From Leucoraja ocellata (Eukaryota): a stretch of 64,000 nt of DNA. Below are positions 1 through 56,500 of the stretch, one piece after another. Under the pieces are notes generated by a model. That model made no database searches and was not told the origin of the DNA. It was given only the letters and a program-made list of their open reading frames with translations. A program made the position numbers and the translations under genes. The stretch spans positions 1 to 64,000 of the forward strand of contig JAWMAR010003146.1 of the NCBI GenBank assembly GCA_036785375.1, given 5' to 3'. Numbering within the stretch: the stretch's first letter is position 1; each line of letters starts with the position of its first letter.

Positions 1-792
1 GCGTGCGTGTGGCATGTGCATGTACCTATACCCAGAATACGGAGGAAAGTTTTAATAGGAACCTGAAGGGCAGCGTTTTCCACTCCGAAGGTGGTGGGTG
101 TATGGAACGAGCTGCCAGAGGAGGTAGTTGGGATTGATGCTATCACATTTTAGATATTTTTTTTCTAATTATTTTTTTATTGAAAGCATATGTACAAATG
201 ATAATAAACGACAAACTGGTAACAGAATTCTTACACAGCTTCAAATTTTAAAGTTTGTTTTTAAAGAAAAGAAATAGAAAGAGAAAGGATTAGAGAAACT
301 ATAAGCTAATAGAAAGGAGAGGTGGGCTAGAGAGAAATAAAATTACACATATAATAAATAGATCCAGGAGATATCTGTTGTGACTTTAATTCTGTGTTAA
401 ACCAATTTACTTTTTTTAAATTCAATAAATTGAGACCATATTCTGTTTTTTTCAATTAAGACAAATCTTATTTTTTCCAAAAAATACGATCACATTCAAA
501 AGCCATTTGGACAGGTACATGGATAGGAAGGGTTTAGAGGAATATGGGCAAATGCAGGCAGGCGGGACTAATGTAGGATTGGACATGTTGGCCGGCAGAG
601 GCAGGTTGGGCCGAAGGGCCTGTTTCTGTGCTGTACATGTCTATGACTCCACAACCACATTAGTGCTGTAGTACAAGCAGACACTGGCCACAGACTGGAC
701 GTGGTGTGGCTGTGTGCCGGTGTAGCCGGTGTAGCCGGTGTAGCGAGCTGCTGAGACCTCACCGTCCCTGCCTCCCTCCCCCCCCCGTGCAG

Positions 793-25338
<24,546 letters not shown>

Positions 25339-26024: not shown

Positions 26025-26499
26025 ATTCCGTTATATGTGCCTTATAAAAGTGCAGTCACAATCTTATCTGTATGTAATGTTATAGTCAAGTGATGCCATT
26101 GAAACGCTGATGTTTTAACTAAAGAGTCACCTTTGTGGATGTAGGTGAGTCTATTGTTATATACACCAGGGTGCAAAAATATGGAGACCTAAGAGACAGC
26201 AGATGCTAGAGTCTTGTGCAAAAACAAAGTGCTGGAAGAACTCAGTGGGCCAGGCAGCATCTGTGGAGGAAAATGGACAGATGATGGTTCAGGTTAGGAT
26301 CTGTCTTCAGACTGATGGAATACAGGGGAGAAAAGTGAGAGGGAGGGGAGGGGCAAGAACAGCTGTTCCCTCCCCACCCTCACCTCCTTACCAGCTTTCT
26401 TCGTTCCAGTGAAGAAGGGTCCCAATCTGAAACATCTCCCGTCTATTTCACCCTACTGACCCACTGTGGTGAGAGATGGAGGCAATAATAATGTGTGGT

Positions 26500-26832
26500 C
26501 CTCACCTTTCTCCCACCTGCCTTCCGCATCTATTCTCCGACAGTTCTGCCACCTTCAATGTGATCCCACCACTGCTCACATCTTCCTGCCATCACCCCTT
26601 TCTGCAGGAGGTAGAGACAATGCTCTCCAGAAGTCTCACTGACTCTGCCCCCTCTCCAAGCACTTTCACCAGCAACCTCAGGGGATATAACACCTGCCCC
26701 TACACCTCCTCACTCACCTCCATCTTCTAGGGACCCCAGTAATCCTTCCAGGTGAGGCAGAGGTTAACATGCACTTCATCAAACATCATCTCCTGCATCC
26801 AGTGCTCCTGATGTGGTCCTCTCTACATTGCC
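26500..26832 (+). mobile_element. Degraded Penelope GIY-YIG endonuclease fragment
   Basis: Reads TCPYTSSLTSI..GPQ*SFQVRQRLTCTSSNIISCIQCS*CGPLYI, the typical PLE Cys-rich/GIY-YIG start. Confidence 0.75.
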
Positions 26833-27938
26833 AGGACCTGGGTCCAGAGCCTGGGGCTAGGTCGGTCCCGGAGGCCGGACTTGGGCGATGTCCCGGGATG
26901 GGGGTCCCAGCAAGATCAAAAACTTAACCCTAATGCAATTACAGTTCCTTCCTACACATTAAAAAATACTAATGGTAACTGATAACCTTTTCTTACACAG
27001 ACTATTCATAATTTGATCTATCATGTATACAACATCATTATTTACCTGCTCTTATCTTCAACTGACATCCTAAACCTGTAGAATTTGCTTGTGTTGTTAG
27101 AGTATTGTTTTTCTAAGACTGGAAAACTGGGCTGGAGATCAGGGGAGCACTTTGTACATTGGGGCTTGGATGATATTTCTTATCACGTCCTCTTGGCTCA
27201 TGAGTATCATAAAGCAAGCTAGATAAAGGATCTAATATCTCCATTGCAAAAATGCAAGGCTGAAGATCAAGAGAGTTTCATTGTCATGTGTCCCAGACAG
27301 AACAATGACATTCTTACTTGCTGCAGCACAACAGTATATGTACACATAGTGCACTGTATAGGGAGGTTTCATGGCAGTCGGGTCACGACCCATGACCCGT
27401 ACTGTTGCTAAGCTATTCCAAATGAACTGCAGGTGGGCACTTACCATTGTTTCCAGCGTAGCGGGCCCGTTACAACCCGCTGAAACTGTCAATTTTTATG
27501 CTGTAAATAATTATGGAAATCTGGATAAGCGTGCGAGACATTTAGCCTACTTCAGAATTCCAAAAGTGAGGAGAAATGATGGTAGATAGAAACAAGAGCT
27601 GAAGGGACAACAACAGCCAGAGTTGCTTGGCGAACATTGGCCATTTGCTCACTGCATTTCATCAACAGTAAGGCATTATTTGTGTTTTTTCTTGATTCCT
27701 TTGGCATCTAAAAAGTTTCAGAGGTGATAAATGTGGCTGTAATTTTTTTAAATCGCCCATGGTTCTCGTGGGTTTTTACTTACAAAATGGAAACGCCTCT
27801 GAAGAAACATTTACAGCCAGATTCATCACTTCTGAGAATTCTTAGATACCAAAGGAATCAAGAAAAAACACAAATAATGCCTTACTTAATGAAATGCAGT
27901 GAGCAAACGCGATAATTCCCAATATTTTCAATGTTGAC

Positions 27939-28613: not shown

Positions 28614-29009
28614 AATAGAGCATGTCATTATACATTGTGAGAGGTATGAGGAAGAAGACAAATGAGTGAACGATTCAGAAAAGAAAAAGTACAATTTGAT
28701 TTAATAGATATTTTACAAAAGAATTCATATAAGTGCTATCAAATCCTATTGCTTTTTCTCAGGGTAACCAATTTGTTTGGAAAGATATAGGTTATTTGTA
28801 GGTAGACAAAATTGCTGGAGAAACTCAGCGGGTGCAGCAGCATCTATGGAGCGAAGGAAATAGGCGACGTTTCGGGCCGAAACCCTTCTTCAGACTGATA
28901 GGTTATTTGTATATAAGTTATGTTATTTGATCCACACTCCACACCAGTTGGTGGTGGTAATGCACTAAAAAGTTGTTTGCCGACCGCCAAAAAAAACTAC
29001 ATAGAAGAA
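28614..29009 (+). mobile_element. 5'-truncated Nimb/I-group LINE
   Basis: IEHVIIHCERY (end of C-terminal Zn knuckle); GGTGGTGGTAATGCAC...AGAAGAAG 3' end; 13-bp TSD GACGGATGTCTTC. Confidence 0.7.
28801..28897 (-). mobile_element. Short Penelope-type element with intact minimal hammerhead core
   Basis: 14-bp TSD ATAGGTTATTTGTA; minus strand CTGAAGAAGGGTTTCGGCCCGAAACGTC. Confidence 0.8.
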
Positions 29010-29279
29010 GACGGATGTCTTCCAGTTGGATTTAGTGGCTCGGTGCATCGAGCCCTATGACCCGGTGACCTTTCGTGCAACCCCCCTATATGTAAACATA
29101 GTGCACTGTATACAATATGATAAATGAGGGAGAAACAAAGAAATAAAATAACGAATGATTGGGGAGTGAAGAATGTGGAGAGAGATCTGATGAGATTGGG
29201 GTGATATTAATTGTGAACGCTTTAACACCTCCAGTTTAAATTCCATTTGGAATATTTTGGAGGACCAAGAACCAAGAAC

Positions 29280-31190: not shown

Positions 31191-32591
31191 GGGGGGGCTG
31201 GGGGTAGAGGGGCAGGGGTAGGAGAGGCTGTGGGGGGATAGGGGTGGACGGGGCTAGGGGGGTAACAACATGCAGGGGGTAGAGGGGCAGGGGCGGATGC
31301 AGGGGGAAAGGAAGATGGAGGGGACAGGAGGATAGAGGGAGGTAGGGATGGGGGGTAGAGGACGGGGCAGTGGGGCTGGGGGTGGAGGGCAGGGGGGACA
31401 GGATGCAGGGGGGGCCAGGAGGGTAGAGGGGGCAAGGAGGTAGGAGAGGATGTGGGGATGGGGGGGTAGGGTTGAGGGGGTGGGGTAAAGGGGCTAGGGA
31501 CGAACAGGATTTAGGGGAAGGAAGATGGAGGGGAGAGGAGGGTAGAGGGAGATAGGGATGGGGTGGAACTGGGTTAGGAGGGTTGAGGGGGTGGGGGGGC
31601 TAGGGACAGGGTTAGGGGAAACATGATGTAGGGGTACAGGAGGATAGAGGGGACAGGGCAGTGGATGGGGGGCCGGTGGCAGGGGGCCAGGGTCAAGGGC
31701 GAAGGACAGGAGATGATGAGCCGGGGCAGGAAGCAGGGTTACAGTAGGGACCAAGGGCAATGGAAGAGCAAGAGGACAGCGGTCTGCGCAGACGGTAGAG
31801 CAGGGGGCAAGGGCAGGGGTGGCAGTGAGCACAGGGAGAGGTCGAGAACCCCCCCACCCCCGTCGACCATCCTTATATTGACTTAAGGTAATCAAAGATA
31901 TGGAATAAAGTTGAGGTAGAAATCAGACATCTAATTAAATAGCATAATGTGTTTGGAGTAGGAAACAAAGTGCTGGGAGGAACACAGCGGGTCAGGCAGC
32001 AACTGTGGTGGGAAATGGACAGACAGCATTTTCACAAGTTATGGGAGCAGAATTAGGCCATTCGGCCCATCGAGTCTACTCTGCCATTCAATCATGGCTG
32101 ATCTCTGCCTCCTAATCCCATTTTCCTGCCTTATCCCTATAACCCTTGACACCTGTTCTAATCAAGAAATCATCCATCTCTGCCTTAAAAATATCCACTG
32201 ACTTGGCCTCCACCGCCCTCTGTGGTAATGAGTTCCACAGATTAACTACTGACTAAAGAAGTTCCTCCTCACCTCCTTTCTAACAGAGCACCCTTTAATT
32301 ATGAAGCTGTGACCTCTGGTCGTAGTCTCTCCCACTTTTGGTTTTGGACCTTTCTTCAGACTGATGATAGTTGACGTTTGACATTATCGGCTCAGTCTGA
32401 AGAAGGGTCCTGATTCAAAACATTGTCTTTCCGTTTCCCTCCACAGATGCTGCCTGACCCGCTGTATTCCTCCCAGCACTTTGCATGTTAAGTGTAGCGT
32501 CTTTGTATGGCTAAATGGATTCTCGTCTTTGTTCCTCTCTTTAACCAAGCTACTTTGACAATGCTTTGTTACAGCTTCATCAGTAAAGAAA

Positions 32592-32676
32592 ATGTCTGAA
32601 GGACCCTCCAACATATCTGGCCCTATTCCACCAGACCCAACGCTGTTCCCAGACTTTTACCGACGTCCGATATCAG
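32592..32676 (+). CDS. ENKD1: ENKD1 first coding exon (acceptor at 32575)
   Basis: MSEGPSNISGPIPPDPTLFPDFYRRPIS. Confidence 0.94.
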
Positions 32677-32819
32677 GTGAATGATTATTCCGTTTTTTTC
32701 CCCAGGTAAAATTGCTCCAATTTTCCACTTTAGTAGAGTTAGTTAAATCACCACTTTGAACTGGGTGGCCTTGGCCTTAAAGCAGAAGGCAGTACAACTG
32801 GATGGCAAAGGGGGAGGGG

Positions 32820-32851
<32 letters not shown>

Positions 32852-35800: not shown

Positions 35801-38800
35801 ACGGGTCCAGGGCCGACCATCGATTCCCCCGTTCACACTAGTTCTATGTTATCCCACTTTTGGGTCTCGCTTTTGGCACTCAGCCATGATCATATTGAAT
35901 GGCGGTGCAGGCTCGAAGGGCCGAATGGCCTACTCCTGCACCTAACTTCTATGTTTCTATGTTTTGCATCCACACCCTACACACTAGGGGGCAATATACG
36001 GAAGCCAATTAATCTGTAAAGCTGCAAATCTTTGGGATGAAACCCCAAAGGGAATGTGCAATCGCCACACAGCCAACGTCCGAGGTCAGGATCAAACCCG
36101 GGTCTGTGGCATCGTGAGGCAGCATCTCTACCAGCTGTGCCACTGTGCCACCCTGAAAGTGTACCACTTTGATAGCAAAGAAGTGACAATCATGACATGC
36201 CAGGAGCACTCTACTCTCAAGAGAGAGTTAGATTGTATCTGGTCAAAGACAGTCACAGTGAATACATGCCTGTAACCAGGTTGCAGACTTGCAGACTTTC
36301 CCAAATGCTGACTGATTCCTTTTCTGTCTTTTCTGTCATTTCTCCTCAGGACAACACATCCCCCAAGCCTTTGGATAATCAGCACTACCTTAAAGCTCAC
36401 TCGCGATGTGGGACTGGGGTCGGTCCCAAGAGATCCACATCCCCGAGCCCAACAAAAGCAGAGGCGTGTGTCGAGGCTCCAGAGGATTCTATCGCAAATG
36501 TGAGTGAAATATTGGACAGAACTCACAAAGTATTTAAACGTAGGTAGACAGAAATGCTGGAGAAACTCAGCGGGTGAGGCAGCATCTATGGAGTGAAGGA
36601 ATAGGTGACGTTTCGGGTCGAGACCCGAAACGTCACCTATTCCTTCACTCCATAGATGCTGCCTCACCCGCTGAGTTTCTCCAGCATTTCTGTCTATCTT
36701 TGATTTTTCCAGCATCTGCAGTTCCTTCTTAAACATTGCGTATTTAAACATGACTGTTTCATGCTTCGTTTAGTTTAGTTCAGAGATACAGCACAGAAAC
36801 AGCCCCTCGTCCCATTGAGCCTACAATCACCTGTTCACACTAGTTCCAAATTATCCCAATTTTCCATCCACTCCATACACACTAGGGGCTATTGACAGAG
36901 AGCAAATGAACCTGCATGTCTTAGGGATGTGGATGTGGGAGGAAACTTACTCGGCCACAGGGAGAATGTGCATACTCCACACAGACAGCATCCGAGGTCA
37001 GGATTGAACTTGCGCCCTGGCACTGTGAGGCAGCAGCTCTACCAGCTGCGCCACTGTGCTGCCCAAATGATCAAACTGAAGCATTATTCAATCCACGGAC
37101 AATATTACCAACTTGCAAACTCATTGCCCTGGGAAAGTGTCTGGGAAAGACTTTTGTGGGAATGTCTTGATAATCATAGAGCATAGAACAGTACAGTACA
37201 GGAACAGGCCCTTCAGCCCACAATGTCTGTGCCGAACATGATCTCAAGACCACGTATATTCCTGCACATAATCCATATCCCTTCATTCCCTGCATATCCA
37301 TGTGCCTATCTAAATTCTCTTAATTGCCAGGTACCCTTCACCATGCACATCTTTACACTTTGCCCCCTCACCTTGAAACTATGCCTTAAACCTCTGATAT
37401 AACCTCTCTGTAAATTTGCTGTTAATGCGACTAATGAAAGTGAATTTTGTTTCCTGGTGATAATTACTAACCTGCTTGTTTTTTTAATTGCAGGCTCAAG
37501 TCACAGGCGTTGCCATAGATTTCATCAGGCACAACGCCCAGAATGCAAGGAAAATGCCAGTACGACGCTCCAAATCTCTGCAGTCCCTGACAGACGTGCT
37601 GGACAGGAAAGAGAAAGAACAGCAGGACTACATCAGCCAGAATAAAGGACAGCTACCGCAGTAGTAAGGAATGCATTATTCATCAATCCTTTTCCTTCAC
37701 CTATTCCGCTGCAACTGGGTGCTATTGGTAGCTTTTATCTCAGAAATTATCCCAGCCTCACTCACCTTAACCTCCTGCTCAATCCCCGACACAACCTTCC
37801 ACATATCCCCATACAGCGCCAGAGACCTAGGTTCAATCCTGTCTGTACGGAGCTTGTACGTTCTCCCCTTGACCTGTGTGGGTTTTCTCCGGGAGCTCCG
37901 GTTTCCTCCCACACCAAAGACATACAGGTTTGTAGGTTAATTGTCTTGGGAGTGTTGGATAATGTTAGTGTGCGGGGATCACTGGTCGGCATGGACTCGA
38001 TGGGCCGAAGGGGCTGTTACTGCACTGTGTCTCTAAACTAAACTAACCAAAGATGCCGTGCTCTGCTCTGCCTTGAACGGTCTTGCATTTGATTATCCCT
38101 GCTTCTGGCGATTCCTTTACATCTTTTCCAGAGCTAAATTTGGCGTTTGCTACCCTGTGAGATCGACCAATGTTGAATCACACATGCCGAGGCCGACCAC
38201 GACTGTCCATGACTGTCCCTCAGGTGGTGAGCCCAGAGTCTTGCACCTGTGGCCCTTTGCCCTCTCACCTGTGTCAAGTACGACACAGTACAGCACAGGA
38301 ATAGGCTCTTCGGCCCACAATGTCTGTGCTGAATATGATGCCAGGATAAACTCTTCTCCTCCCCTCCACAAGATGCATATCCCTCCATTCCCTGCATATC
38401 CACCATCATATCCAAAAGCCTCTTAAATGCCACTATTGATTCTGCCCCCACCACTGCCCTGGCAGTGCATTCCAGGCATCCACCACCTTCTGTGTAAAAA
38501 CAAAACTTCCCTGCACATCTCCTTTAAACACTGCATCTCTCACCTTAAAGCTAAGCTCTCCGGTCTATGACATTTCCATCCTGGGAAAAATGTTCTGTCT
38601 GCTTACCCTATATATATATACGCCTCTCAAATGTTATAAACTTCTATCAGGTCTCCCCTCAACCTCAAACGTTACAGAGAAAACAATCTAAGTTTGTCTA
38701 AGTAGTTAATACACTCTTCCACCATCCCCTCAGCATTGAAATCAACTTATACTGAAGGGTTTCCAAACTTGACCATCTTACAGTCAGGAAGTTTTTACAA

Positions 38801-40487
38801 CTCAGCTTTGGATTCCCTCACTCACCCACAATTAGCTGCTGATTAATCTTGTTCACTCCATTTGCAATAATGATGGTTACATACCTCGGTCTTGCCCAAA
38901 TCCTTTAGCAAGGTTTTGGGCCTTGCAAATTGAATCTTGAATCTTGAATCTTGAATCTAAGTTTGAAAAGTGGAACATGTACAAGGCATGTCCTTTGTTC
39001 CAGAGTGACATTGTCAAATTGAATGTTATTTGCTTTTCTTCCTTTAATTAAAAACTATATTTTCCTTTTTTTCTTCTCTCAGAACATTCAATAAACTTAT
39101 CGAATAGTGGAAGGCTTGGATAGAGAGGATGTGGAGAGAATGTTTCCACTAGTGAGGGAGTCTAGAGTCTAGAGGCCGTAGCCTCAGAATTAAAGGACGT
39201 TCCTTTAGGAAGGAGGAGGAATTTTGTTAATCAGAGGGGGGTGAATCTGTGGAATTCTTAGCCAAGTCAATTGATATTTTTAAGGTAAAGATAGATAGAT
39301 TCTTGATTAGTACGGGTGTCAGGGGTTATGGGGAAAAGGCAGGAGAATAGGGTTAGGAGGGAGATAGATCAGCCATGATTGAATGGCGGAGTAGACTTGA
39401 TGGGCTGAATGGCCTAATTCTGCTCCTATCACTTATGGCCTCTCATAAATCCTCTCCGTGTTTCCAGTTTAATTGAACGGCGGAATCAATGGAGGAAAGA
39501 TGCGGAAGAGCGGCAGAAAAATATCCCTGACCCCAGCATGCCTCCAGGTCACACCAGGATGCCAGAGAATGAAAGACTGGAAACACTCAGTTCCCTCCAA
39601 CAAAGTAAGTTTCTGTGCTCTCCCTGCTGTAGAGAATAACATCTCTAGGATGACCCGAAACGTCACCTATTCATTTTATCTGACCCGCTGAGTTACTCCA
39701 GCACTCTGTGTCTATCCTCTTATGAATTATTGACAGGGTAACAGTTTGTGGATAACACTTGCTCCTGTACCAACTCTACATTTGGGTTAAACAAGCATTT
39801 CAGTCCAGCTCGCCCCATGCACCGTGTACAGATCATGCTCGGACAAAGCAGTGCCTAGTGATTGCAAGTTTTAAACAAATAAGTAAAGCCATTTTGCATT
39901 TCAAAAAGCAAGAGCTGCAGATGCTGGAAGTCTCAATTAGAAGCAGAACATGGTGATAATATATGGTAGACAAAAGTGCTGGAGAAACTCAGCGGGTGCG
40001 GCAGCATCTATGGAGCGAGTTTCATGGATGGACCTCCGCTCCGTAGATGCTGCTGCACCCGCTGAGTTTCTCCAGCATTTTTGTCTACCTTCGATTTTCC
40101 AGCATCTGTAGTTCCTTCTTGAACATGGTGATAATATACAGCAGGTCAGGCAGTATCAATGGAGAAAACAGACAATATTTTGGGTTAATGACATTTCATC
40201 AGAGCCCGTGAACTATTCAAGGTACATGGGTGATGCAAGTTGAGTGTTTAAAGTATTTATGTTTTAATTAACTTGAACTACCTGCTCACCTTGTTTAATC
40301 TGCTTCCTGCCAACCCCTACCCCTAGCCCAAAAGCAGCTGATCAAGCAACTGCTGATGTTTCCTGTGCGAGTGGATACGATTGGCATGCAGAATAGACGA
40401 GCTGACCTGGAGAAGAAACTGGCAGAGATCGAAGAGGCCATTAAAATCTTCTCTCGGCCCAAAGTTTTCATCAAAGTTAATGTCTGA
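32592..40487 (+). CDS. ENKD1: Enkurin domain-containing protein 1, 366 aa. Coding exons 32592-32676, 33722-33946, 35397-35569, 36350-36499, 37494-37663, 39468-39604, 40327-40487
   Basis: Spliced open frame of 1101 nt: MSEGPSNISGPIPPDPTL...GRLEGNSLKLD...DHEKENVRR...DFIRHNA...PDPSMPPGHTRMPENERLETL...EEAIKIFSRPKVFIKVNV*, recognisably ENKD1. Confidence 0.96.
33722..33946 (+). CDS. ENKD1: ENKD1 exon
   Basis: RGRLEGNSLKLDFLTGPLAPDPTLYPSCY...EILERGQRGSVGVLLQLEGVSL. Confidence 0.94.
34064..34546. mobile_element. Non-autonomous hAT DNA transposon
   Basis: TIRs TTGGGTCGCCAACT and AGTTGGCAATCCTA; 8-bp TSD TCAGTCAG; subterminal CGGGAC repeats; inserted in a Penelope-type element. Confidence 0.82.
35397..35569 (+). 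CDS. ENKD1: ENKD1 exon
   Basis: KEPRDHEKENVRRMREIQKK...KALWKSHKYESVPSKVMARLQ. Confidence 0.94.
36350..36499 (+). CDS. ENKD1: ENKD1 exon
   Basis: DNTSPKPLDNQHYLKAHSRCGTGVGPK...SIAN. Confidence 0.92.
36545..36696. repeat. Perfect 75-bp inverted repeat (fold-back Penelope-type element)
   Basis: Arms 36545-36619 and 36622-36696 are exact reverse complements; flanking GTATTTAAAC duplication. Confidence 0.92.
37494..37663 (+). CDS. ENKD1: ENKD1 exon
   Basis: AQVTGVAIDFIRHNAQNARKMPVRRSKSLQ...KGQLPQ. Confidence 0.93.
39468..39604 (+). CDS. ENKD1: ENKD1 exon (enkurin domain)
   Basis: LIERRNQWRKDAEERQKNIPDPSMPPGHTRMPENERLETLSSLQQ. Confidence 0.95.
40327..40487 (+). CDS. ENKD1: ENKD1 last coding exon
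   Basis: QKQLIKQLLMFPVRVDTIGMQNRRADLEKKLAEIEEAIKIFSRPKVFIKVNV*. Confidence 0.95.
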
Positions 40488-41768
40488 GCAGCTCAGAAAG
40501 GTAAAGTTCAGGTTGCAACAACATTTCTGTTTCTGGTTATTGCTTGGAATAATGGTTATGATGTTAAAGGCTTGGTTGTGATGTGAATGGGGAGAAGAGA
40601 GTTGAGGTGTATGAAAACAAATTTGAATCAGTTACCAAATACACAGGATACGATGTTAAAAAATCCAAAGTGCCAAATATCAACTTGCTCCCGGTGGTAC
40701 ACGATACAAGATACATTTATTTGTCACATGTGCCAGTTGGCACAGTGAAATGAGATAACCATACAGCCATACAATAAAAATAAAGAACACAACACACGAT
40801 AAAGTTAAACACAAAATTCTTAAGGGGTTGGACAGGTTAGATGCAGGAAGATTGTTCCCGATGTTGGGGAAGTCCAGAACAAGGGGTCACAGTTTAAGGA
40901 TAAGGGGGAAATCTTTTAGGACCGAGATGAGGAAAACGTTTTTCACACAGAGAGTGGTGAATCTGGAATTCTCTGCCACAGAAGGTAGTTGATTGGCTAT
41001 ATTTGCTATATTTGGCTATATTTGCTATAAATTGGCTATATTTAAGAGGGAGTTAGATGTGGCCCTTGTGGCTAAAGGGATCAGGGGGGTATGGAGTGAA
41101 GGCAGGAACAGGATACTGAGTTGGATGATCAGCCATGATCATATTGAATGGCGGTGCAGGCTCGAAGGGCCGAATGGCCTACTCCTGCACCTATTTTCTA
41201 TGTTTCTATGTAAACATAAAACATCTCCACACAGCAGAATCAAAGTTTCCCACTGTGAGGGAAGGCGCCAAAGTCAGTCTCTTCCTCTAATGTTCCCCAA
41301 TGTTCACTCGTGGTCGGGGCCTCCCCGAGCCCTCCGAAGTCGCCGCTACGGGCGGCCCGATGTTCAGGCCCGGTGATGGGAGCCTTATGCACTCACCTAT
41401 GCTCCTCCGATGTTGAGAAAGACTAGGCAGACACGTCATTGTGGTTATCAAGTGGGCACCTTTTCACTGGTGCAGCGAACAGATCTGCTTCCTCACAACA
41501 GCAGCGACCTGGGATTGATCCTGATCCCAATCCCGAGTGTCGTGGAGTTTACATGATCTTCCTGTGACTGTGTGGATTTCTTCTGGTGTTCCAGTTTCCT
41601 CCCACTTCACAAAGACACAAAGAAGATTTGTAAGTTAATTGGCTTGTGTAAACTACCCCTAGAGTTGTTGCAAAGTGGAATTGTTGTGAATGGGTGATCG
41701 ATGGTCGGTGTGGATTTGCTGGGCCGAAGGTCCTGTTTCTATGCAGTATCAATCATATTAAATGTAGG

Positions 41769-41903
41769 GTTTAAGAGGGAACTGCAGATGCTGGAGAATC
41801 GAAGGTTACACAAAAAAGCTGGAGAAACTCAGCGGGTGCAGCAGCATCTATGGAGCGAAGGAAATAGGCAACGTTTCGGGCCGAAACCCTTCTTCAGACT
41901 GGG
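41769..41903 (-). mobile_element. Short Penelope-type element with hammerhead core
   Basis: 15-bp TSD CATATTAAATGTAGG. Confidence 0.8.
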
Positions 41904-42188
41904 CATATTAAATGTAGGTGCTGGCTCGAAGGGCCAAATGGCCTATTCCTGCACCTATTTTTCTATGTTTCTAATTTTCGTAGAAAATTAGAAACATAGA
42001 AAAATAGGTGCAGGAATAGGAAATTTAAGGTAATTTCGTAATTCTACAATAATTACCTTTTGAAAACTAGTGATGTTCATCTCTGAATTAAATTTAGAAG
42101 TTTATGGAAAATTAAACCTATTTTGTAGCCAAATGAATCATTTGAATCCTCTGAATTATAGCTTTGTTCTTGTTCCTTTACATTGCAG

Positions 42189-44580: not shown

Positions 44581-47500
44581 GTAATGGAGGCCGGGAGACA
44601 GCGCGTTCAACCCCCTTCCCCTCACACTCTTCCCTCTTTCCCCCTTCTCCTGCCCCTCCCCCCTTTATCCCCCTCTCACACCCCTTCCCCTCTCCCCCTC
44701 CCCCCTTCTCCCCCCGCCTCTCCCCTCCTCTTCCCATCCTCTCCCCCTTCCCCTCTCCCTCTCCCCCTCCACTCTCCTCTTCTTCTCCCCCCTTCCCATC
44801 CTCTCCCCCCTTTCCATCCTCTCCCCCCTTCTCCTCCCCTCCTCTCCCCCCCCCTTCCACTCCTCTCCCCCCCCCCCTCCCCTCCTCTCCCCCCCTTCCC
44901 CTCCTCTCCCCTTCCTCTCCCTCCTTCCCCTCCTCTCCCCTTCCTCTCCTCCCTTCCCATCCTCTCCCACTTCCCATCCTCTCCCACTTCCCATCTTCCC
45001 CCCCTTCCCCTCTTCCCCCCCCTTCCCCTCATCCCCTCCTCCCCTTCCTCTATTCTCTCCCAGGGGTAACAGTCACCCTCACCCCCACTGCCCCTTCTCC
45101 CCAGGGTAACAAGTCTCCCCCCCCCTTCCCTGGGGTAAGTCACCCTCACCCCACTGTCCCCACTCTCCCCAGGGTAATAGTTATCCTCACCCCCCACCCT
45201 CCTTCTCCCTGTGGTTATAGTTACCCCCTCTCCCTGGGGTAACTGTGGCCCTCACCCCCCCCACTGCCCAGCCTTTGAAACATACCTGGTTGTTTTATTT
45301 TGCAGAACTGGCTAACTTTGAGAGGAATGTGAATCGGGCGATGCACAAGTACAATGCTTACAGGTAATCCTCACTATCAGCAGCATTGACGTCCGTAAGA
45401 TCCCAGCTAACAGTTGCATTTCTTCCCAGGGTTCCTGACCTAATCAACAATCACTGTGGTGGATGAGCTCAGTGGGTCAGGCAGCATCTGTGGAGGGAAT
45501 GGACAGGTGATATTTTGGGTCGGGACCCTCCTTCATACGGATGGAGTTGGGGGGGAAGTAAGCTGGTAAAGAGAGGTAGAGCTGGAACAAATGATCGGTG
45601 TATACAGTTCAGATGACTTAGGTCAGTGGCTCCTGCTTAATATTGGTCCCCTCAGTAAACCCAGTTCATCACCCCTATCAGGTGGTGCTTCCAATTGGAT
45701 CCAGAATGATGTTCTGGACAAGCAAATGAGTTACTCTAGCAATGGTTCCTAATATAAACCACATGATCAGTATACTTCAAACTTTAATTTCACATTTTAA
45801 TTGGTTTAGTTTATTTAGTTTTGAGATACAGTGCGGAAACAGGCCCTTCAGCCCACCGAGTCTGCATCAACTAACGATCCCCCGCACATTAGCACTATCC
45901 TACACACACTAGGGACAATTTACACATATACCAAAGTCAATAACCTACAAACTTGCATGTCTTTGGAGTGTGGGAGGAAACCAAAGATCTCATAGGGACC
46001 CACACAGTCATGGGGAGAATGCACAAACTCCATAGAGACAGCACCTGTAGTCGGGATCGAACCCGGGTCTCCGGCCCTGCAAGCGTTTAAGGCAGCAACT
46101 CTACCGCTGCGCCACCGTGCCGCAGTTGTCCCGTGGTTGCCGGGTTATAAATAGAAATATACTTTCAATCTGAGTTTGTCATCTGTAAATTAGATTCTTA
46201 ATTTGCAGTATACCTGCTTTCTATGCGAGGCTCACATGGAAAGGGAAAATGCGTGTAATACAATTTTACAAAATTATTACTGTATCGAGGCTTTCTATTC
46301 TGCAGAATGATTACCAAAAACAAAGTAGATATTTGGAATGCAAGTTTGTACTTTTTGTTATCTTCTGACAGGAAAGCAGCGTCGGTTATCGCAAAATATC
46401 CAACAATAATCAAGAGTGGTGCAGAAGCTAAAAAACTGGTGAGCATTTCAATACTAAAAAAACATTTTTGTAACATTTCAAAATGTTGTAAACTTTAGTT
46501 ATTATTTCCAATATTTGCATCATTTAAAACATCTTAAATGAGTTAAAATGACAAGGTATCCGAGTGGTGTTTTGTGAGATAGAATGCATTAATTTATATT
46601 TGCAATACGTTTCAGGAAGGAGTTGGTGACAGGATTGCTAAGAAGATTGACGAGTTTCTAGCAACAGGAAAGTTGCAAAAGCTGGAAAAGGTACAGCATG
46701 GATTATTTATTCAATTAATCCTTTCAAGTGTTAATCACCTGTTTAGATTTATTCCAGATTAATGGTACGGGATGATCGAACAATCATCCAAAGTAAGAAA
46801 TCTATCAGGCGTGAAAAGAAAGCCATGTATGTTTTGCAAAGAAGATCTTCAGTACACTTTGGTGGATACAAAAAAGACACATAGTGCTGGAGTAACTCAG
46901 CGGGACAGGCAACAGCTCTGCAGAGAAGGAATGGGTGACGTTTCAGGTCGAGACCCGAAACGTCACCCATTCCTTCTTTCCAGAGTTGTTGCCTGCCCCG
47001 CTGAGTTACCAAAATATTTTGTGTCTATCTTTGGTTTTAACCAGCATATGCAGTTCCTTCCTATACAAAAAAGCACTGTACATTTTGAAAAGATGGTAGT
47101 CCACACAACCCCAACCCCATATGTTTACCAGCGGGGTTGGTATACTTACTGTTGTGAAATCTTGCTCTAACTAAAATTGATTTCCACATTTTCTATAAAT
47201 GTAGAACTTCAATTTTTTTTTTAAATGGTTTAAAAATTAAGATGGGACTTGACCCAAAACGTCGCCCGTTCCTTCTCTCCAGAGATGCTGTCTCACCCGT
47301 TGAGTTACTCTAGCGTTTTGTGTCTACCTTCATTGGTGTAAATGGTGTAAAAAGAAATTCCACATCACATCGAGTAACTGGGAGCACATTGCACTGGACA
47401 GGCTCTCCTGGAGGAAATCCGTGCAGGAAGGAGCTGCACGTCACAAAATGGAACTACGCTGTGTCGCAGAGACAAAGCGACAGCACCGTGAGAGAGATAG

Positions 47501-50500: not shown

Positions 50501-53500
50501 AAGACTTCAAAATGTTTTACGTTAAGGACACATCCTTTGCGTTTAATTTGTTTGCTGATTTGGTACACAGGCTAAAATTGTTGGGGAAAAATTTAATCAT
50601 TTAATTTCATTTTTTTAGATAGTTTTTCTTAAATGTGAGCAATTGTGTAGTGCAGGTATTTGCTCGATGTGCTAAAGCCCTCTGGTGGCAAATAAAAGGG
50701 ATAACTAAACAACTTCTAGTTTTGGACAATAAGATCATGTGATAGGTGGAGAATTAGGCCATTCGGCCCATCAAGTCTACTCTGCCATTCAATCATGGCT
50801 GATCTATCTCTCCCTCCTAACCCCATTCTCCTGCCTTCTCCCCTAGCCTTTGACAATAACTTAGTCACACTGTGCTACATGTAATAATCGCAGAAATATT
50901 TATCTTGTAATGGGTTTCAAAACGGAGTCTGAGCAGTAACACAATGTTTAATGTGGATCACACAATTATAGTTTGGATCTGAAACTTGAGTTTCTACCTT
51001 GTGCTTCATGTTAGTTAGTATATTATATGCGGTGCAGGAGGATTGGCGAGATATGAAGGTAGTCCCTTGCTATAGTGGCAAAGTAGTTGTTATTTTTCAT
51101 TGATGCTAAACCTGAACCATTTAAAAGTAAGGGGCGACCTGAATTAAGTCATGCAGGATAACAGAGAGAACTTTTAACTGAACATTTAACCTACAGGGGT
51201 GACCTATAATAGGCCAGTTCAGGTGGAGTTACTTTCCAATTACTAAATGCTGATAGTTATTTTATTGATTTCTGTAGGTATTTTGAGGACTTTGAAAAGC
51301 GAATTCCTCGGACAGAAATGGTGAAAATGCAGGTAAGGCAAAGAGACCTCAAACTGGGTAAGATATGTAGGAAAGAACTGCAGATCGAAGATAGACACAA
51401 AATGCTGGAGTAACTCAGCTGGACAGGCAGCGTCTCTGGAGAGAAGGAATGGGTGACGTTTCGGGTCTCGATTAGAGATACCGTGCGGAAACATGCCCTC
51501 CCCACCGATCAGCGATCCCCGCACACTAACACTATCCTACACACACTAGGGGCAATTTTTTACATATACTGCAAGCCAATTAACCTACAAGCCTGCACGT
51601 CTTTGGAGTGTGGGAGGAAACCGAAGATCTCGGAGAAAACCCACGCAGGTCACGGGGAGAATGTACAAACTCCGTACAGACAGCACCCGGGACTCTAGCG
51701 CTATAAGGCAGCAACTCTACCGCTGAACCACAGTGCCACCCTTAAACTTTGTAGTTACTTCATTGGTCTCAAGGCTTGGGAGGTTCTTTTAAAATGATGA
51801 GAGGGATAGACAGAGTCGATGTGGACAAGCTTTTCCCTTTGAGAATAGGGAAGATTCAAACAAGAGGACATGACTTCAGAATTAAGGGCCAGAAGTTTAG
51901 GGGTAATATGAGGGGGAACTTCTTTACGCAGAGAGTGGTGGCGGTGTGGAATGAGCTCCCAGTGGAAGTGGTGGAGGCAGGTTCATTGGTATCATTTAAA
52001 AAATAAATTGGATAGGCATATGGATGAGAAGGGAATGGAGGGTTATGGTACGAGTGCAGGTATATGGGACTAAGGGGAAAAAAATTTGTTCGGCATGGAC
52101 TTGTAGGGCCGAGATGGCCTGTTTCCGTGCTGTAATTGTTATATGGTTATATGGTTCTGACGTAATGGAAGGAATTGCACAAATGTGTTTTATTTCCCCT
52201 TTGACCTCTACTGCAATTTTTGTTTTAATCGAAAATTCTTGTTCTCTTTTGAAAACTTGTTGAAATTGGTTCTAAGAAGCCATCAGTCAAATTTTCCTGT
52301 CTTTAGTCCTCTGGTTTTTCACCATGAGCCATTAGAAACTATTTCATGCTACTTATTTAAAACTTTCATGATTTTCACACTTGCATCTAATCTCCAGTTA
52401 GTCTTTCCCTGCTACAAACTCTATGGATGATTTATAAATCACCGATGAATAGTTGGGAATAATGAATTCCTGTAATCATTTAGTAAATCTCCACTCTTTA
52501 GGAAAAACTCTTGTTGCCAAATTTCTTGTTTTATTTCAGTCCATATTAAAAACATGGCAGTCCATATTAAAAACATGAATTTCTGGCTGGAAGAAATGGA
52601 TCAACAACCAGAGGTTACACAAAAAAGCTGGAGAAACTCAGCGGGTGCAGCAGCATCTATGGAGTGAAGGAAATAGGCAACGTTTCGGGCCGAAACCCTT
52701 CTTCAGACTGGATCAACAACCAGATTGGTTAAGGATGGAAAAGGAAGACTGTTTACCTTTTGAAATTAGTCCGATTATATTTGCTCCCACAAAACTGCAC
52801 AAAAAAACCTATAAGGAAAACCCTATAATACAGAGTGGAATACAAATTTGGAAACAATTAAAAAAAGCTTTAAAATTGAATAATATACCACTATGCCTTC
52901 CCATTGTAACTAATCCTTTATTCAAGCCATCCATATTGGATAAAGGTTTCACACAAAGGAAAAACTGCCACACCATTCCTAAGTTTGGTCCTTAGCAATT
53001 ATCATTCCCTGAATATCTATGTGCCGATCCAGACCCCTATTAAATGCCACCATTGTATCCACCACAATTGGCAGCGTGTTCCTGGCACACACCACCTTCC
53101 TTCTGTGTAAGACTAAAACACTTGCCCCGCACATCTCCTTTAAACATTGCCTGCACATGATCCCTGCATATCCACTTAATTTTACCACAGTAGAGTTGAA
53201 GTAAATGAAAGATCTGCCACACAGTCACGAATGTCACTTCTGCTTTTACTTAGCATCGTGAATTTTTATTATTTTTGTCTCTTTTACTCTTTAGGCTATA
53301 GCTCTGCGGGAGGTGGAAAAATTAGATTCTAAATATGTCGCCACCGTTTGTGGCAGCTTCAGACGAGGTTGGTACATTCCGCTTTCTGCATTAGCAAAAA
53401 GAAAAATAGCAAATGGAATACTTGCTCTTTTGCCAAAACCAGGATACCATTTGATGATTTATCTGCTTTAAAAGTAGATAAATTAAAAAAAATTGGATCA

Positions 53501-56500
53501 AATTGCTAAGGATGTGTGCAAATTCACAGTGTGCTGAAGGGGACTGGATAAGCTCTCACTGGGGCTGACCGCGGGGCTTGAAAAAAACAGGAGAACTTAT
53601 CACTTGTGCTCTTGAGACTTATCCACTCCTCTTCAATGTCTCCATCTCTACCACATCTGCTCCCAAGATGAGGCTTTCCATCCAAGATGTCTTCTTTCGT
53701 TAGTAAACGTGGTTTCCCCTCCCCCGCTGACACAGATGGAACCTTGAACCATGTCTCCTCCGTGGCCAGTGTTTCTGCTTTTGCTCCCCCTCCCCCCAGG
53801 CGCAACTAGGACAGTTCCCCATGTCCTTATTTTTCACCCGACTTGCCTCCGCATCCAACACATCATTGTCTCTACTTAATAACATTTATAATACTTTCCT
53901 TTATAGTGATTGAGCTGATAGAGGATGTGCTGTTACAGTTTTATGACCACCAGTTATTCTTTATCTGTTTCTATTTCTATTTGTTTAATGACTACTAAAT
54001 GCAAAAAAAAATGTAGGGAGTATGGATCAAAAGCAATATTCCTCAGTGTTCTCTCTTGTTCTCAGGCGCTGAGTCCAGTGGTGATATGGATATTCTCTTG
54101 ACTCATCCGGACTATACCTCGGAATCTTTAAAAAGGGTACGTTGCTTTCTAGAGATGTCAGTTTACAATGTCATGTGTTAGTATTCAGCAGGTACATAAT
54201 CACCAAGTCATGTCATATGGGTTTCATTTGTACAAGAAGGTGATTCATCATCACAGGTGCATTTGGCAAATAATGGACAACACTTGTTGGCCTTGGATGT
54301 GAATGAATAATGAAAAGCTATACCTGTTTCTGCTGGCCTGCAGTGTAGTCTATTATAATAATCCCTGAATACATTTAAATGGTTTCATTGACCTCTCCCC
54401 ATTTTGTTTATTAAAACACAGAGTGCCGGAGGAACTCTGCAGGTCAGGCAGCATCCGTGGGAGAGTGGACACTGCCTGATCTGTTGACTTCCTCTGGTGT
54501 TTTGCTGGAGCTTCCAGCCTGCAGTTTCCCATTCTACCTACCCTGGGACAAGGTGTGTGCTTCCTATACTTACTCATGGCCATAGCATTGTTCAACAGCA
54601 GAGGGCACTGTACTTCTTCCCTAGGATGCAGATAGACTGAAGGAATTAGATGCCAGTGCTGAACTCAAATAGCTTTAAACATTTTTTAATTGCTGAAAAC
54701 CGTGTCTTTGCAAGAGGATGCTCACGTTGCAGTATTAAACTACAGAATCAAGACTGAATGCTTTAATATAGGAAATAAATCCTGCAGACATGGCTATGAT
54801 TAAGGTTACCTTTGGTCACCTTTTGAAGGAATTTGTGAAAAGTTCAGTTTAGTTTATTGTCACACATACCGAGGGACAGTGAGCCTGCCATACCAATTTG
54901 ATGGGAGTTGAGGGAGAGTAATTAGGTCAAACTTTGCAATGCAAGAATAATTTCAAAGCTACTTTCATATGACATCTTTAGGCCATTCTCAATATTGAAT
55001 GTGGACAAAAATGCTGGAGAAACTCAGCGGGTGCAGCAGCATCTATGGAGCGAAGGAAATTTTTTTCCTTCACTCCATAGATGTTGCCGCACCCGCTGAG
55101 TTTCTCCAGCATTTTTGTCTACCTTCGATTTTCCAGCATCTGCAGTTCCTTCTTAAATTATATTGAATGGATTGTTCTGATTCCATTTTCAGGTTTCTTG
55201 CATAAATAACTATCACCTGGATGGTGTCTAGTTTATTTTTTAATTGTCACGTGTACCGAGGCAAGGCTTTTTTGTTGCTTGCTGTCCAGTCAGCGAAAAG
55301 ACTATATGTGGTTACAATCAAGTCATCCACAGGTCTGCTCGATGATGAGCCAACACCTTTTTGAGATTCATTTTGAAGATACAAAATAAAGGATTTCCCA
55401 AGGAGTAGAACATTAGCAGAAAAAGAGTGGGAAAATTGGCTGGGAAAGAAATCTGACAAAAATGCTAAGCGACTTAAAAGTTCCCCTTTAAACCATTTAG
55501 ACGGTTTCATGTTAACATCATGTAGCAATGTTACAAAATTTTGAGATTTAAAAAATCAAGTCTGTAATTTATCCCATCAGATAAAGTAAAAAAAGAAGTT
55601 TAATTTGACACCTAATTCACTTTCATATCTCAAGTATTTAAAAAGTTATGGCCATTTTCATACTCGGAAATTAGCATCTTGTTCCCTATTGATTTTCTAT
55701 GGACATAACAAAAAAGCTGTGATCGTGTGCTGTCAAAAGGCCATAACCTTCTTAAAAATTAAGAGAACTGAATGAAATTTTCAGTTATCGTAGATTGAAC
55801 CATTCTGAAACAAATATAAAATAATCTTACTTGGATGACCTGAAATTAAAATATATAATTAGTTAGTTACCCAAGTGTAGCTAATTTCAACCTTCAATTA
55901 CTAGATCTAAACGTCTATTCATTTCTTAATAAATGATTAACATTTTTAAATAGCTCGTGTCCAAATAATATTCATAAATAATTCTCAATAAAACATGATT
56001 TTGAAATCTCATTTACATTAATTTATAGGCCAAATGGAAGGAATTTAGTGTTCAATTGCTGTAAATTAAAGTCCATTTTAAATCGGCTTTCTAGTGGGTT
56101 CCTGTGAACGCGCTGGTTTAGAACGTTCACATTGCAGTAGAATTGTGCCTTCAAATGCCCAGAAAAATACTGCGGGATATAAAGAGCCCAAAATTAGCTA
56201 CTCGCAATAGTAACTTTGTATAAAGGGTTCTAAAGAAGCCCTTTTTAATGTAAAAATAAGGTACATACCTTTAATTGTTTGCTTTATAAAACCCTGGGGC
56301 TGCGAGAGGTCACGGGTTTAGAGAGTGATTTTTAAACTACTATAACTATTATACAAGGCCATAAAAACTAATATTACCTTTCGCGACGGGGTCTTTCAGC
56401 GATTTTTCGTTAATGATTTACTAGGCTGAACATTTTCGATTGCAACAGCCTAGTAAAAATCGCGTTTTAAACCCGCCCCCTCTAAACAGCGCCAAAATCG

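What the first reader, a model, noticed from the sequence alone, without database searches (positions are those of the whole stretch)
28787..28911. Abundant family of ~100-150 bp mobile elements carrying a minimal hammerhead ribozyme (Penelope-type)
Seen: a repeat at about 30 loci (counted by eye) reads AGT-CTGAAGA-A-GGGT(TTCG)GCCC-GAAA-CG-TC/TT, or in a second subfamily GGGTC(TC)GACCC. Stem II pairing is kept in both subfamilies. Intact cores lie at 23064-23091, 28866-28893, 41870-41897 and 52679-52706 (all minus strand). Clean TSDs flank young copies: 14 bp (28787/28898), 15 bp (41754/41904), 16 bp (52597/52709) and 18 bp (39946/40121). One insertion boundary repeatedly falls within a few nt of the CUGA. 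Penelope GIY-YIG and RT relics are present at 26500-26832 and 53620-53875. Established: CUGANGA/GAAA/NUH is the hammerhead core. Penelope-like elements carry minimal type I hammerheads whose palindromic stem III allows dimer cleavage, and an extra A after A9 is known from a viroid hammerhead. Inference: these are recently mobile, non-autonomous ribozyme-bearing elements whose stem III is reduced to the palindrome ACGU (or AACGUU), so cleavage would need dimerisation. Stem I is only 2-4 bp here, so activity is not guaranteed.
Basis: partly seen in the sequence, partly recalled or inferred. Interest (0 to 1): 0.8.

Follow-up and report, generated by a model that had tools for sequence, protein, structure and literature searches.

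The report
Penelope retroelement stubs carrying minimal hammerheads
The repeat is real and carries a minimal hammerhead-ribozyme motif, but it is most likely the clipped tail end of a Penelope-like jumping gene, a known arrangement; the one fresh lead is that many stubs begin right at the motif, which may mark where the element's RNA starts.

Summary
Confirmed: 52 hits in 35 loci (0 in the reversed window), the four target-site duplications exactly as stated, and four intact cores. Only those 4 of 52 keep core, stem II and palindrome; the 18-bp-TSD copy has no hammerhead. These look like 3' stubs of an autonomous Penelope-like element (PLE), not a separate non-autonomous family: some copies run upstream into a C-rich UTR, one abuts an RT relic, an optional ~30-nt tail and 13 head-to-head pairs are PLE hallmarks, and 20 of 54 related RT+GIY-YIG loci carry a hammerhead just after the ORF, with covarying stems. 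Activity is doubtful: stem I is 2 bp, a competing hairpin is predicted, no head-to-tail dimer exists, reads show no ends at the cut site. Fresh lead: 34 of 52 copies begin at the ribozyme, and in 9 of 20 related families a TATA box lies 31-46 nt upstream of it, so stubs may be run-off cDNAs of a transcript that starts at the hammerhead. No TATA was seen in this window's own UTRs. The scan has noted this kind before on other DNA (234 notes, at least 14 genomes).

The parts
28787..28800 (+). target-site duplication, left copy (14 bp)
28801..28897 (-). PLE 3' stub, TTCG-loop subfamily, short end, no tail; starts 4 nt before C3
28866..28893 (-). minimal hammerhead core: CUGAAGA, extra A, 4-bp stem II, GAAA, ACGU palindrome, predicted cut after GUC (between 28866 and 28865)
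   Evidence: cleavage untested
28898..28911 (+). target-site duplication, right copy
41769..41903 (-). stub with intact core (41870-41897) and ~35-nt tail (41769-41805); 15-bp TSD 41754-41768 / 41904-41918
52613..52708 (-). stub with intact core (52679-52706), no tail; 16-bp TSD 52597-52612 / 52709-52724
22996..23091 (-). stub with intact core but no stem I 5' strand; 14-bp TSD with one mismatch (22982-22995 / 23090-23103)
23108..23315 (.). head-to-head pair, tail on the left arm, junction between stem II and the core's 5' edge; 16-bp TSD with one mismatch
36540..36739 (.). head-to-head pair forming a palindrome centred on stem II; tail on the right arm; 10-bp TSD
46877..47062 (.). head-to-head pair centred on stem II; tail on the right arm; 11-bp TSD
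39964..40120 (.). head-to-head pair without hammerhead, tail on the right arm, 18-bp TSD; inserted into an older family member
55002..55159 (.). head-to-head pair cut just downstream of the hammerhead, tail on the right arm, 10-bp TSD
2458..2811 (-). RT-domain relic (2811 to about 2620), about 40 nt C-rich UTR, then a GGGTC(TC)GACCC copy (A9 mutated) with tail, all on one strand
   Evidence: (E 6e-4)
26191..26838 (.). old inverted pair with UTR (26191-26455) followed by RT-EN linker and GIY-YIG relic (26532-26838, +)
53634..53900 (+). PLE RT thumb/linker relic, frameshifted, no repeat copy attached
16810..17186 (+). long copy: about 250 nt pyrimidine-rich UTR, decayed core, tail
   Evidence: UTR extent read by eye

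Best explanation
These repeats carry a minimal hammerhead motif and are likely dead-end 3' stubs (pseudo-LTR ends) of an autonomous Penelope-like retroelement in what is probably a skate or ray, likely pasted in by that element's own reverse transcriptase-endonuclease from RNA that the ribozyme had not cut. Shown: motif, TSDs of 9-18 bp in AT-rich DNA, two 3' end classes about 95 and 130 nt after C3, head-to-head pairs, UTR-bearing longer copies, PLE protein relics, the same motif after the ORF of related PLEs. Inferred: the GIY-YIG domain nicks AT-rich DNA; RT primes at one of two internal sites of the RNA (short end or tail end, as shown in vitro for the anole element) and copies towards the 5' end; most cDNAs end at or within the hammerhead. 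My preferred reason (about 45% of this part) is that the transcript itself starts at the hammerhead's 5' edge, so priming at the 5' copy of the terminal repeat gives a run-off cDNA of 95-135 nt; stalling on structure is the close rival (about 40%). cDNAs that fold back on the stem II complement would give the palindromic pairs. Stubs lack the upstream promoter and decay neutrally; they would cleave, if at all, only as protein-assisted dimers.
For: PLE link: relic P0001 has 215 homologues at E<=0.001; 3 of the 4 full-length ones scanned hit both RVT_1 and GIY-YIG, the fourth GIY-YIG only; the 4 named proteins among 10 looked up are from Leucoraja, Hypanus (2) and Rhincodon. In 86 related loci, 20 of 54 with a complete ORF end carry a min-HHR on the sense strand within 1.2 kb downstream, against 1 of 54 antisense and 1 of 1080 shuffles; the closest have the same geometry 110-150 nt after the ORF. 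Stems I and II covary in 23 sequences: 87.5% of cells paired vs 62.4% shuffled, 40 two-sided changes vs 11, 0 of 500 shuffles; stem I was not a selection criterion. RT relic, UTR, motif and tail are colinear at 2811-2458. Ends: 25 of 52 hits stop at the short end, 20 carry the tail; reads and contigs of two species break at 41769 and 41807-41810 with mixed flanks; a related family ends at +80..95 (9 of 29 hits) or +133..160 (12 of 29). 13 head-to-head pairs, tail on one arm only in 10 (39946 corrected by its TSD). TSDs 71.6% AT vs 51.4% window. 5' limits: 22 of 52 at the core's edge, 12 in stem II, 13 downstream, 5 upstream. TATA-type box at -46..-31 from C3 in 9 of 20 related families, 0-3 in other bins, shuffled mean 0.8, 0 of 2000; AWTAAA 0 of 20 there. 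The window's consensus around -3 fits the initiator pattern YYANWYY (pattern recalled). Neutral decay: G12 lost in 11 of 37 hits and G12A in 13% of X23 reads.
Against: No full-length parent of this exact family was obtained (no genome; 0 hits); the colinear RT relic is weak (E 6e-4) and joined to the UTR across a large deletion. No TATA box is visible in the window's UTR-bearing copies (by eye), so the promoter argument rests on distant relatives; the TATA window and the TATTTAA variant were chosen; 11 of 20 families lack it. The initiator match is partly forced by the core's CU and is weak alone; it is not at a fixed place in relatives. Loose ends at -3 do not begin with the extra G expected from a cap (majority letters only). 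Only 1 of 29 hits of the related family is a solo copy starting near the core (-16; loci were chosen for their ORFs). The UTR part of my profile is weak, so upstream extension may be undercounted. 5' limits spread over about 30 nt, not one base.
Confidence: 0.75

Rival explanations
1. Same PLE stubs, but the 5' hot spot comes from RT stalling, dissociating or folding back at RNA or cDNA structure (stem II, or the longer hairpin that pairs the core with the sequence after the cut site) on long transcripts primed at the 3' terminal repeat. Confidence is for this mechanism within the stub reading.
For: 12 of 52 hits start in stem II and two pairs are palindromes centred on it; 8 of 13 pairs have both arms ending within or at the edge of the ribozyme; a hairpin spanning the core is predicted; opposite-strand joints from 41861/41866 to 41899 occur in contigs of both species; palindromic junctions were read as self-priming in PMC3846280 (passages).
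Against: The largest class (22 of 52) ends at the 5' edge, after RT has crossed stem II; the element is no more structured than shuffles (z 0.77); stalling does not explain the TATA spacing in relatives.
Confidence: 0.4
2. A self-standing non-autonomous family (SINE-like or retrozyme-like) whose 100-150 nt RNA is transcribed on its own and mobilised in trans by a PLE.
For: Very high density; four near-identical young copies (86-92 of 93 nt identical) with shared 5' edge and clean TSDs; coding relics are few and old; non-autonomous PLE derivatives are described (bioRxiv 10.64898/2026.07.22.740005; PMC8557442).
Against: No A/B box pair and a T-run before the 3' end in 6 of 6 copies; no tRNA head; no tandem arrays of the unit; copies extend upstream to variable length; diagnostic anatomy equals the PLE terminus of relatives.
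Confidence: 0.15
3. The 5' edge is a splice acceptor (pyrimidine tract then CAG just before stem I), and splicing supplies a better stem I, as the Drosophila virilis intron end maps to helix I.
For: C/T-rich run then CAG immediately 5' of the core; PMC4209133 places the D. virilis intron end at helix I; loose ends at -2 mostly begin with G.
Against: Spliced copies should share an upstream exon, but loose ends are mixed (agreement 0.33-0.47) and TSDs abut at -2 to -6; the AG is not kept in relatives.
Confidence: 0.05
4. Copies are kept by the host as active ribozymes that process introns of IKBKB or POLB.
For: Family reads are common in both RNA runs (15,007 and 16,020 laid); non-CpG core columns are 94% identical vs 86% in the body.
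Against: All four intact cores lie on the minus strand while both identified genes are on plus; G12 decays at CpG; the core/body gap is confounded by subfamily-diagnostic sites; no RNA ends pile up (table 6); predicted stem II pairing probability is about 0 in 3 of 3 window copies vs 0.99 and 0.56 in two relatives.
Confidence: 0.03

Closest known systems
Minimal hammerheads (min-HHR) in the pLTRs of metazoan Penelope-like elements (Cervera and De la Pena 2014, PMC4209133)
   Same: Type I core, extra base between 9 and 10.1, G10.1-C11.1, palindromic 15.2-16.2, mostly single dispersed motifs from truncated PLEs, pairs on opposite strands 100-700 bp apart.
   Different: Stem I is 2 bp here (4-5 bp for Schistosoma in that paper; >=3 bp in 16 of 19 related sites); stem II is only 4 bp; density is very high (52 hits in 62 kb); cartilaginous fish are not named in the parts read.
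Poseidon_Ac of the green anole (Frangieh et al. 2024, PMC11167929)
   Same: Two 3' ends separated by a ~30-nt tail about 100-150 nt after the hammerhead, AT-rich targets, uncleaved RNA as template, no RNA-seq reads ending at the cut site.
   Different: Poseidon clade, ORF starts in stem II; here the parent's relatives have the Cys linker of Neptune/Nematis type and their ORF starts 250-700 nt after the 5' hammerhead; the paper does not discuss a 5' hot spot in the parts read.
Adineta vaga Penelope pLTRs (Arkhipova et al. 2013, PMC3846280)
   Same: Inverted pLTR, tail on one arm, 8-10 bp TSDs, palindromes at inverted junctions, putative TATA plus initiator in the pLTR, solo pLTRs.
   Different: Written before the hammerhead was recognised, so TATA-to-ribozyme spacing and junctions at stem II are not stated; solo pLTRs there lack TSDs and are ascribed to recombination.
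Non-LTR retrozymes (Cervera and De la Pena 2020, PMC7229834; Li et al., bioRxiv 10.64898/2026.07.22.740005)
   Same: Type I hammerhead, non-coding, derived from PLE pLTRs, long TSDs.
   Different: Defined by head-to-tail arrays with two or more complete ribozymes and circular RNA; none here.

Membership tests
min-HHR of PLEs | Core CUGANGA ... GAAA ... UH with stem II and G10.1-C11.1 | tested here: met
   4 complete copies; covariation with relatives
min-HHR of PLEs | Extra unpaired base after A9; palindromic 15.2-16.2 | tested here: met
min-HHR of PLEs | Stem I closing the junction (3-5 bp) | tested here: inconclusive
   2 bp in 3 of 3 TSD-bounded intact copies vs >=3 in 16 of 19 related sites; the two inner pairs follow the covariation
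min-HHR of PLEs | Self-cleavage as a dimer or with protein | not testable with these tools
   No RNA end pile-up in two runs not designed to keep such ends; competing fold predicted
EN+ Penelope-like element, 3' stub | Motif lies downstream of an RT + C-terminal GIY-YIG ORF | tested here: met
   20 of 54 related loci; colinear but internally deleted relic at 2811-2458; no intact parent of this family seen
EN+ Penelope-like element, 3' stub | Optional 30-40 nt tail at one end | tested here: met
   20 of 52 hits; one arm only in 10 of 13 pairs
EN+ Penelope-like element, 3' stub | Inverted 5'-truncated copy at the 5' end; variable 5' truncation; TSD | tested here: met
EN+ Penelope-like element, 3' stub | Partial tandem (direct pLTR-ORF-pLTR) | tested here: inconclusive
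   Not in the window; seen in related loci L007 and L076
Neptune clade | Cys-rich linker before the endonuclease and RT phylogeny | tested here: inconclusive
   Relatives keep C255, C260, C263; decayed in the relic; no tree with named clade references was built
Non-LTR retrozyme | Head-to-tail repeats with at least two complete ribozymes | tested here: not met
   Two same-strand neighbours only, neither with two cores; unit absent from tandem-repeat list
Non-LTR retrozyme | Circular monomer RNA | not testable with these tools
   poly(A)-based libraries only
Pol III SINE (Sm-alpha-like) | Internal A and B boxes, no terminator before the 3' end | tested here: not met
   0 of 6 with an A box, 0 exact B boxes, T4-T6 run in 6 of 6 (box patterns recalled)
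Rfam hammerhead families | Covariance-model match | tested here: not met
   No hammerhead among 23 matches at E<=1

The most novel reading that the evidence does not exclude
In this PLE lineage the hammerhead is the very 5' end of the transcript, set about 30 nt behind a TATA/initiator promoter, and the dispersed 95-135 bp stubs are integrated run-off ('strong-stop-like') cDNAs primed at the 5' terminal repeat; stem II doubles as the snap-back primer that makes the head-to-head pairs. The stubs would then be a genome-wide fossil record of the RNA's 5' end and of PLE second-strand priming, and in this fish a built-in anti-hammerhead hairpin would keep the template uncut.
Probability: 0.3. Interest if true: 0.62.

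Novelty: new member of a known kind. Interest (0 to 1): 0.3.

Why it matters
The ribozyme-in-Penelope arrangement is known since 2014, so the catch alone is ordinary. What a PLE hammerhead does and how PLE cDNA ends and inversions form are still open (PMC8557442 calls the function unclear; PMC11167929 finds cleavage dispensable in vitro). A family this dense, with exact TSDs, gives many junctions to test both questions, and the fixed TATA-to-hammerhead spacing in relatives gives a concrete prediction: transcription starts at the ribozyme's edge, so cleavage would remove the cap.

Tried and rejected
Whole-genome analysis: no genome held. Family motifs in viral, prokaryotic and metagenome collections: 0 hits. 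Word-based homologue search with the relic: none; Pfam on six relic frames: none; PLE relatives in viral contigs: none confirmed. Rfam hits are hairpin artefacts of inverted pairs, all below gathering score. Read-through of the repeat in 150 fetched proteins: none. Tail similarity between this family and the L083 family looked good by eye but 171 of 1000 shuffles match it: rejected as evidence of homology; only the distances agree. First TSD null (6 of 35 vs 43 of 600) was inflated by self-overlaps and tandem repeats and was redone. Antisense control for TATA (6 of 20) is uninformative as the motif is near-palindromic. Strand bias of unpaired copies: 17 minus vs 9 plus, p 0.17. Cleavage-derived 5' ends: one copy (17365-17434) starts at the cut site but has no TSD, and read depth shows no step there. 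Cap-derived extra G: not supported at -3, unclear at -2. Dimer energies can encode only one core and were not used as evidence of activity. Earlier-findings look-ups by sequence and place were empty.

Full report
Setting. The window holds plus-strand exons of IKK-beta and DNA polymerase beta, and 2320 N. No genome is held. The four named proteins among ten relic homologues looked up come from Leucoraja, Hypanus (two) and Rhincodon, so the host is inferred to be a cartilaginous fish, probably a skate or ray. Positions below count from C3 of the core.

The insert 28801-28897 sits between exact 14-bp duplications, and the 15, 16 and 18-bp duplications are exact too; seven more of 9-16 bp were found (11 of 31 curated spans score >=9, against 25 of 300 random spans). 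A profile finds 51 hits and none in the reversed window; an extended profile finds 52 hits in 35 loci. The core pattern occurs 5 times against 0.00 expected. Only 4 of 52 hits keep core, stem II and the ACGU palindrome, all of the TTCG-loop subfamily. The 18-bp-TSD insert has no hammerhead. G12 is changed in 11 of 37 hits that cover it, mostly by CpG decay, and in 969 of 7230 X23 reads: copies decay once inserted.

It is a real PLE hammerhead motif. The relic at 26532-26838 has 215 homologues; of four full-length ones scanned, three hit both RVT_1 and GIY-YIG and one GIY-YIG only. With five such proteins aligned I fetched 86 related loci (80 of 530 metagenome matches kept by the tool; 6 from genome bins; host animals not determined). 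Of 54 with a complete ORF end and at least 150 nt behind it, 20 carry a minimal hammerhead on the sense strand within 1.2 kb, against 1 antisense and 1 of 1080 shuffles; 34 had none under that strict descriptor. The nearest have the same geometry 110-150 nt after the ORF. In an ungapped alignment of 19 related and 4 window sites (I left out two window sites whose 5' side is flank or junction and added the 2547-2586 copy), stems I and II covary: 87.5% of cells pair against 62.4% shuffled, 40 two-sided changes against 11, 0 of 500 shuffles, and all slid registers are lower. Caveats: one family is over-represented and rows were chosen for stem II; stem I was not a criterion, and its three inner pairs hold in 23, 21 and 18 of 23.

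It is most likely a stub, not a family of its own. (a) 5 of 52 hits run upstream into a pyrimidine-rich UTR (two manual corrections stated in the script), and reads laid on the 41754 copy show G-rich loose ends on the plus strand at 41901 (3570 X21 reads, agreement 0.6). (b) At 2811-2458 an RT-domain relic, about 40 nt of UTR, the motif and a tail lie in order on one strand; the RT match is modest (E 6e-4) and most of the ORF is deleted. (c) 3' ends fall in two classes: 25 short, 20 with tail, 7 other (the 39906 hit borrows the tail of an older copy); reads and contigs from two species break at 41769 and 41807-41810 with mixed A/T-rich flanks, tail depth about 40% of peak in X23. A related family ends at +80..95 in 9 and +133..160 in 12 of 29 hits. 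(d) 13 head-to-head pairs, with the tail on one arm only in 10, on none in 2, on both in 1. The tail and the inverted truncated copy are given as PLE hallmarks in PMC8557442, PMC3846280 and PMC8969392 (passages), and PMC11167929 (first half of the text) shows that the tail lies between two internal RT start sites, that targets are AT-rich (TSDs here 71.6% AT) and that uncleaved RNA is the main template. (e) No Pol III boxes, and a T-run precedes the 3' end in 6 of 6 copies; no tandem arrays.

Activity is doubtful. Stem I is 2 bp in the three TSD-bounded intact copies, against at least 3 bp in 16 of 19 related sites. The purine run of the core is predicted to pair with the pyrimidines after the cut site; stem II pairing probability is about 0 in 3 of 3 window copies, 0.99 and 0.56 in two relatives (predictions only). 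No locus offers two cores head to tail, and all four intact cores are antisense to the identified genes. Two RNA runs gave 15,007 and 16,020 family reads but no pile-up of ends and no depth step at the cut; these poly(A)-based libraries would not reliably keep such ends, and reads pool all copies. PMC4209133 (first half) reports no monomer and low dimer activity; PMC11167929 reports cleavage only with protein. Lunse et al. 2016 on dimer cleavage was not held; I know it only through PMC6765202 (passages).

Why do copies start at the ribozyme? Cleavage cannot cause this, as the cut is at +28. In relatives a TATA-type box lies 31-46 nt upstream of C3 in 9 of 20 families (other 16-nt bins 0-3; strict TATAAA 5 of 20; 0 of 2000 shuffles; 10 of 20 hand-picked representatives with TATAWAWR allowing one mismatch). 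By the usual spacing of about 30 nt (recalled) transcription would start 3-14 nt before the core. The window's consensus there fits an initiator with +1 at -3. Hence my preferred inference: priming at the 5' copy of the terminal repeat yields a run-off cDNA of 95-135 nt. Against it: the bin and one variant motif were chosen after seeing the data, no TATA is visible in this window's own, decayed UTRs, the initiator match is weak alone, no cap-G signature is seen at -3, and D. virilis Penelope has a TATA-less promoter about 120 nt upstream of helix I (PMC2377424 passages with PMC4209133). Stalling or fold-back is nearly as likely, and clearly operates for the pairs: 8 of 13 have both arms ending within or at the edge of the ribozyme and two are palindromes centred on stem II. 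PMC3846280 already notes a putative TATA plus initiator in a rotifer pLTR and palindromic junctions as self-priming, without reference to the ribozyme.

Novelty. The motif, its place in PLE termini, dispersed truncated singles and opposite-strand pairs are all described in PMC4209133. The retrozyme preprint (parts 1-3 of 5 read) includes one chondrichthyan genome but concerns tandem units. I found no paper on this family in cartilaginous fish (searches; listings only) or on TATA-to-hammerhead spacing and a start-site origin of the stubs; the library lacks most subscription journals, Dfam and Repbase were not searchable, supplementary figures of PMC4209133 and PMC11167929 (text search empty) and the preprint's supplements were not seen and may bear on this. 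The scan's own notes list 234 similar findings in at least 14 genomes, unchecked and not used as support. Verdict: new member of a known kind, interest 0.3; the start-site and snap-back reading is the part worth testing (probability 0.3, interest 0.62 if true).

Noticed in passing
window 9205-9270, 29226-29276, 2801-2861: A short piece of a different repeat, ending in a few 7-nt units, is inserted into the hammerhead core of the 9136-9360 pair and abuts the RT relic at 2811; a third copy lies at 29226.
   Followed up: partly
window 22982-23331: Two family insertions sit side by side in an older repeat, with overlapping target duplications of 14 and 16 bp; either two hits at one preferred site or one compound event.
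   Followed up: partly
window 39906-40211: The young 18-bp-TSD pair is inserted into an older, divergent family member whose core reads CUGAUGA, showing several waves of the family.
   Followed up: partly
window 41860-41893 (reads): Reads and contigs of both species show a rare 34-nt tandem duplication spanning most of the core and the cut site; it would place two stem II-GAAA units in a row. Unexplained.
   Followed up: no
window 41940-42022: A near-perfect 38-bp inverted repeat made from the end of another abundant short repeat gives the best false microRNA hits in Rfam; fold-back insertions are not limited to the Penelope family here.
   Followed up: no
L038, L078, L081-L085: A related family reads CCGACGA at the core (U4 to C) in several copies, a shared core variant.
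   Followed up: no
L081-L086: Six Penelope-like loci lie in contigs of bacterial genome bins, most likely animal host DNA contaminating the bins.
   Followed up: no
window 41715-41935 (run X21): Single-cell reads lie about 4:1 on the strand opposite the hammerhead; internal oligo-dT priming on A-rich flanks could explain it.
   Followed up: no
window 32500-40490: An unidentified multi-exon gene on the plus strand lies between IKBKB and POLB (read by eye).
   Followed up: no
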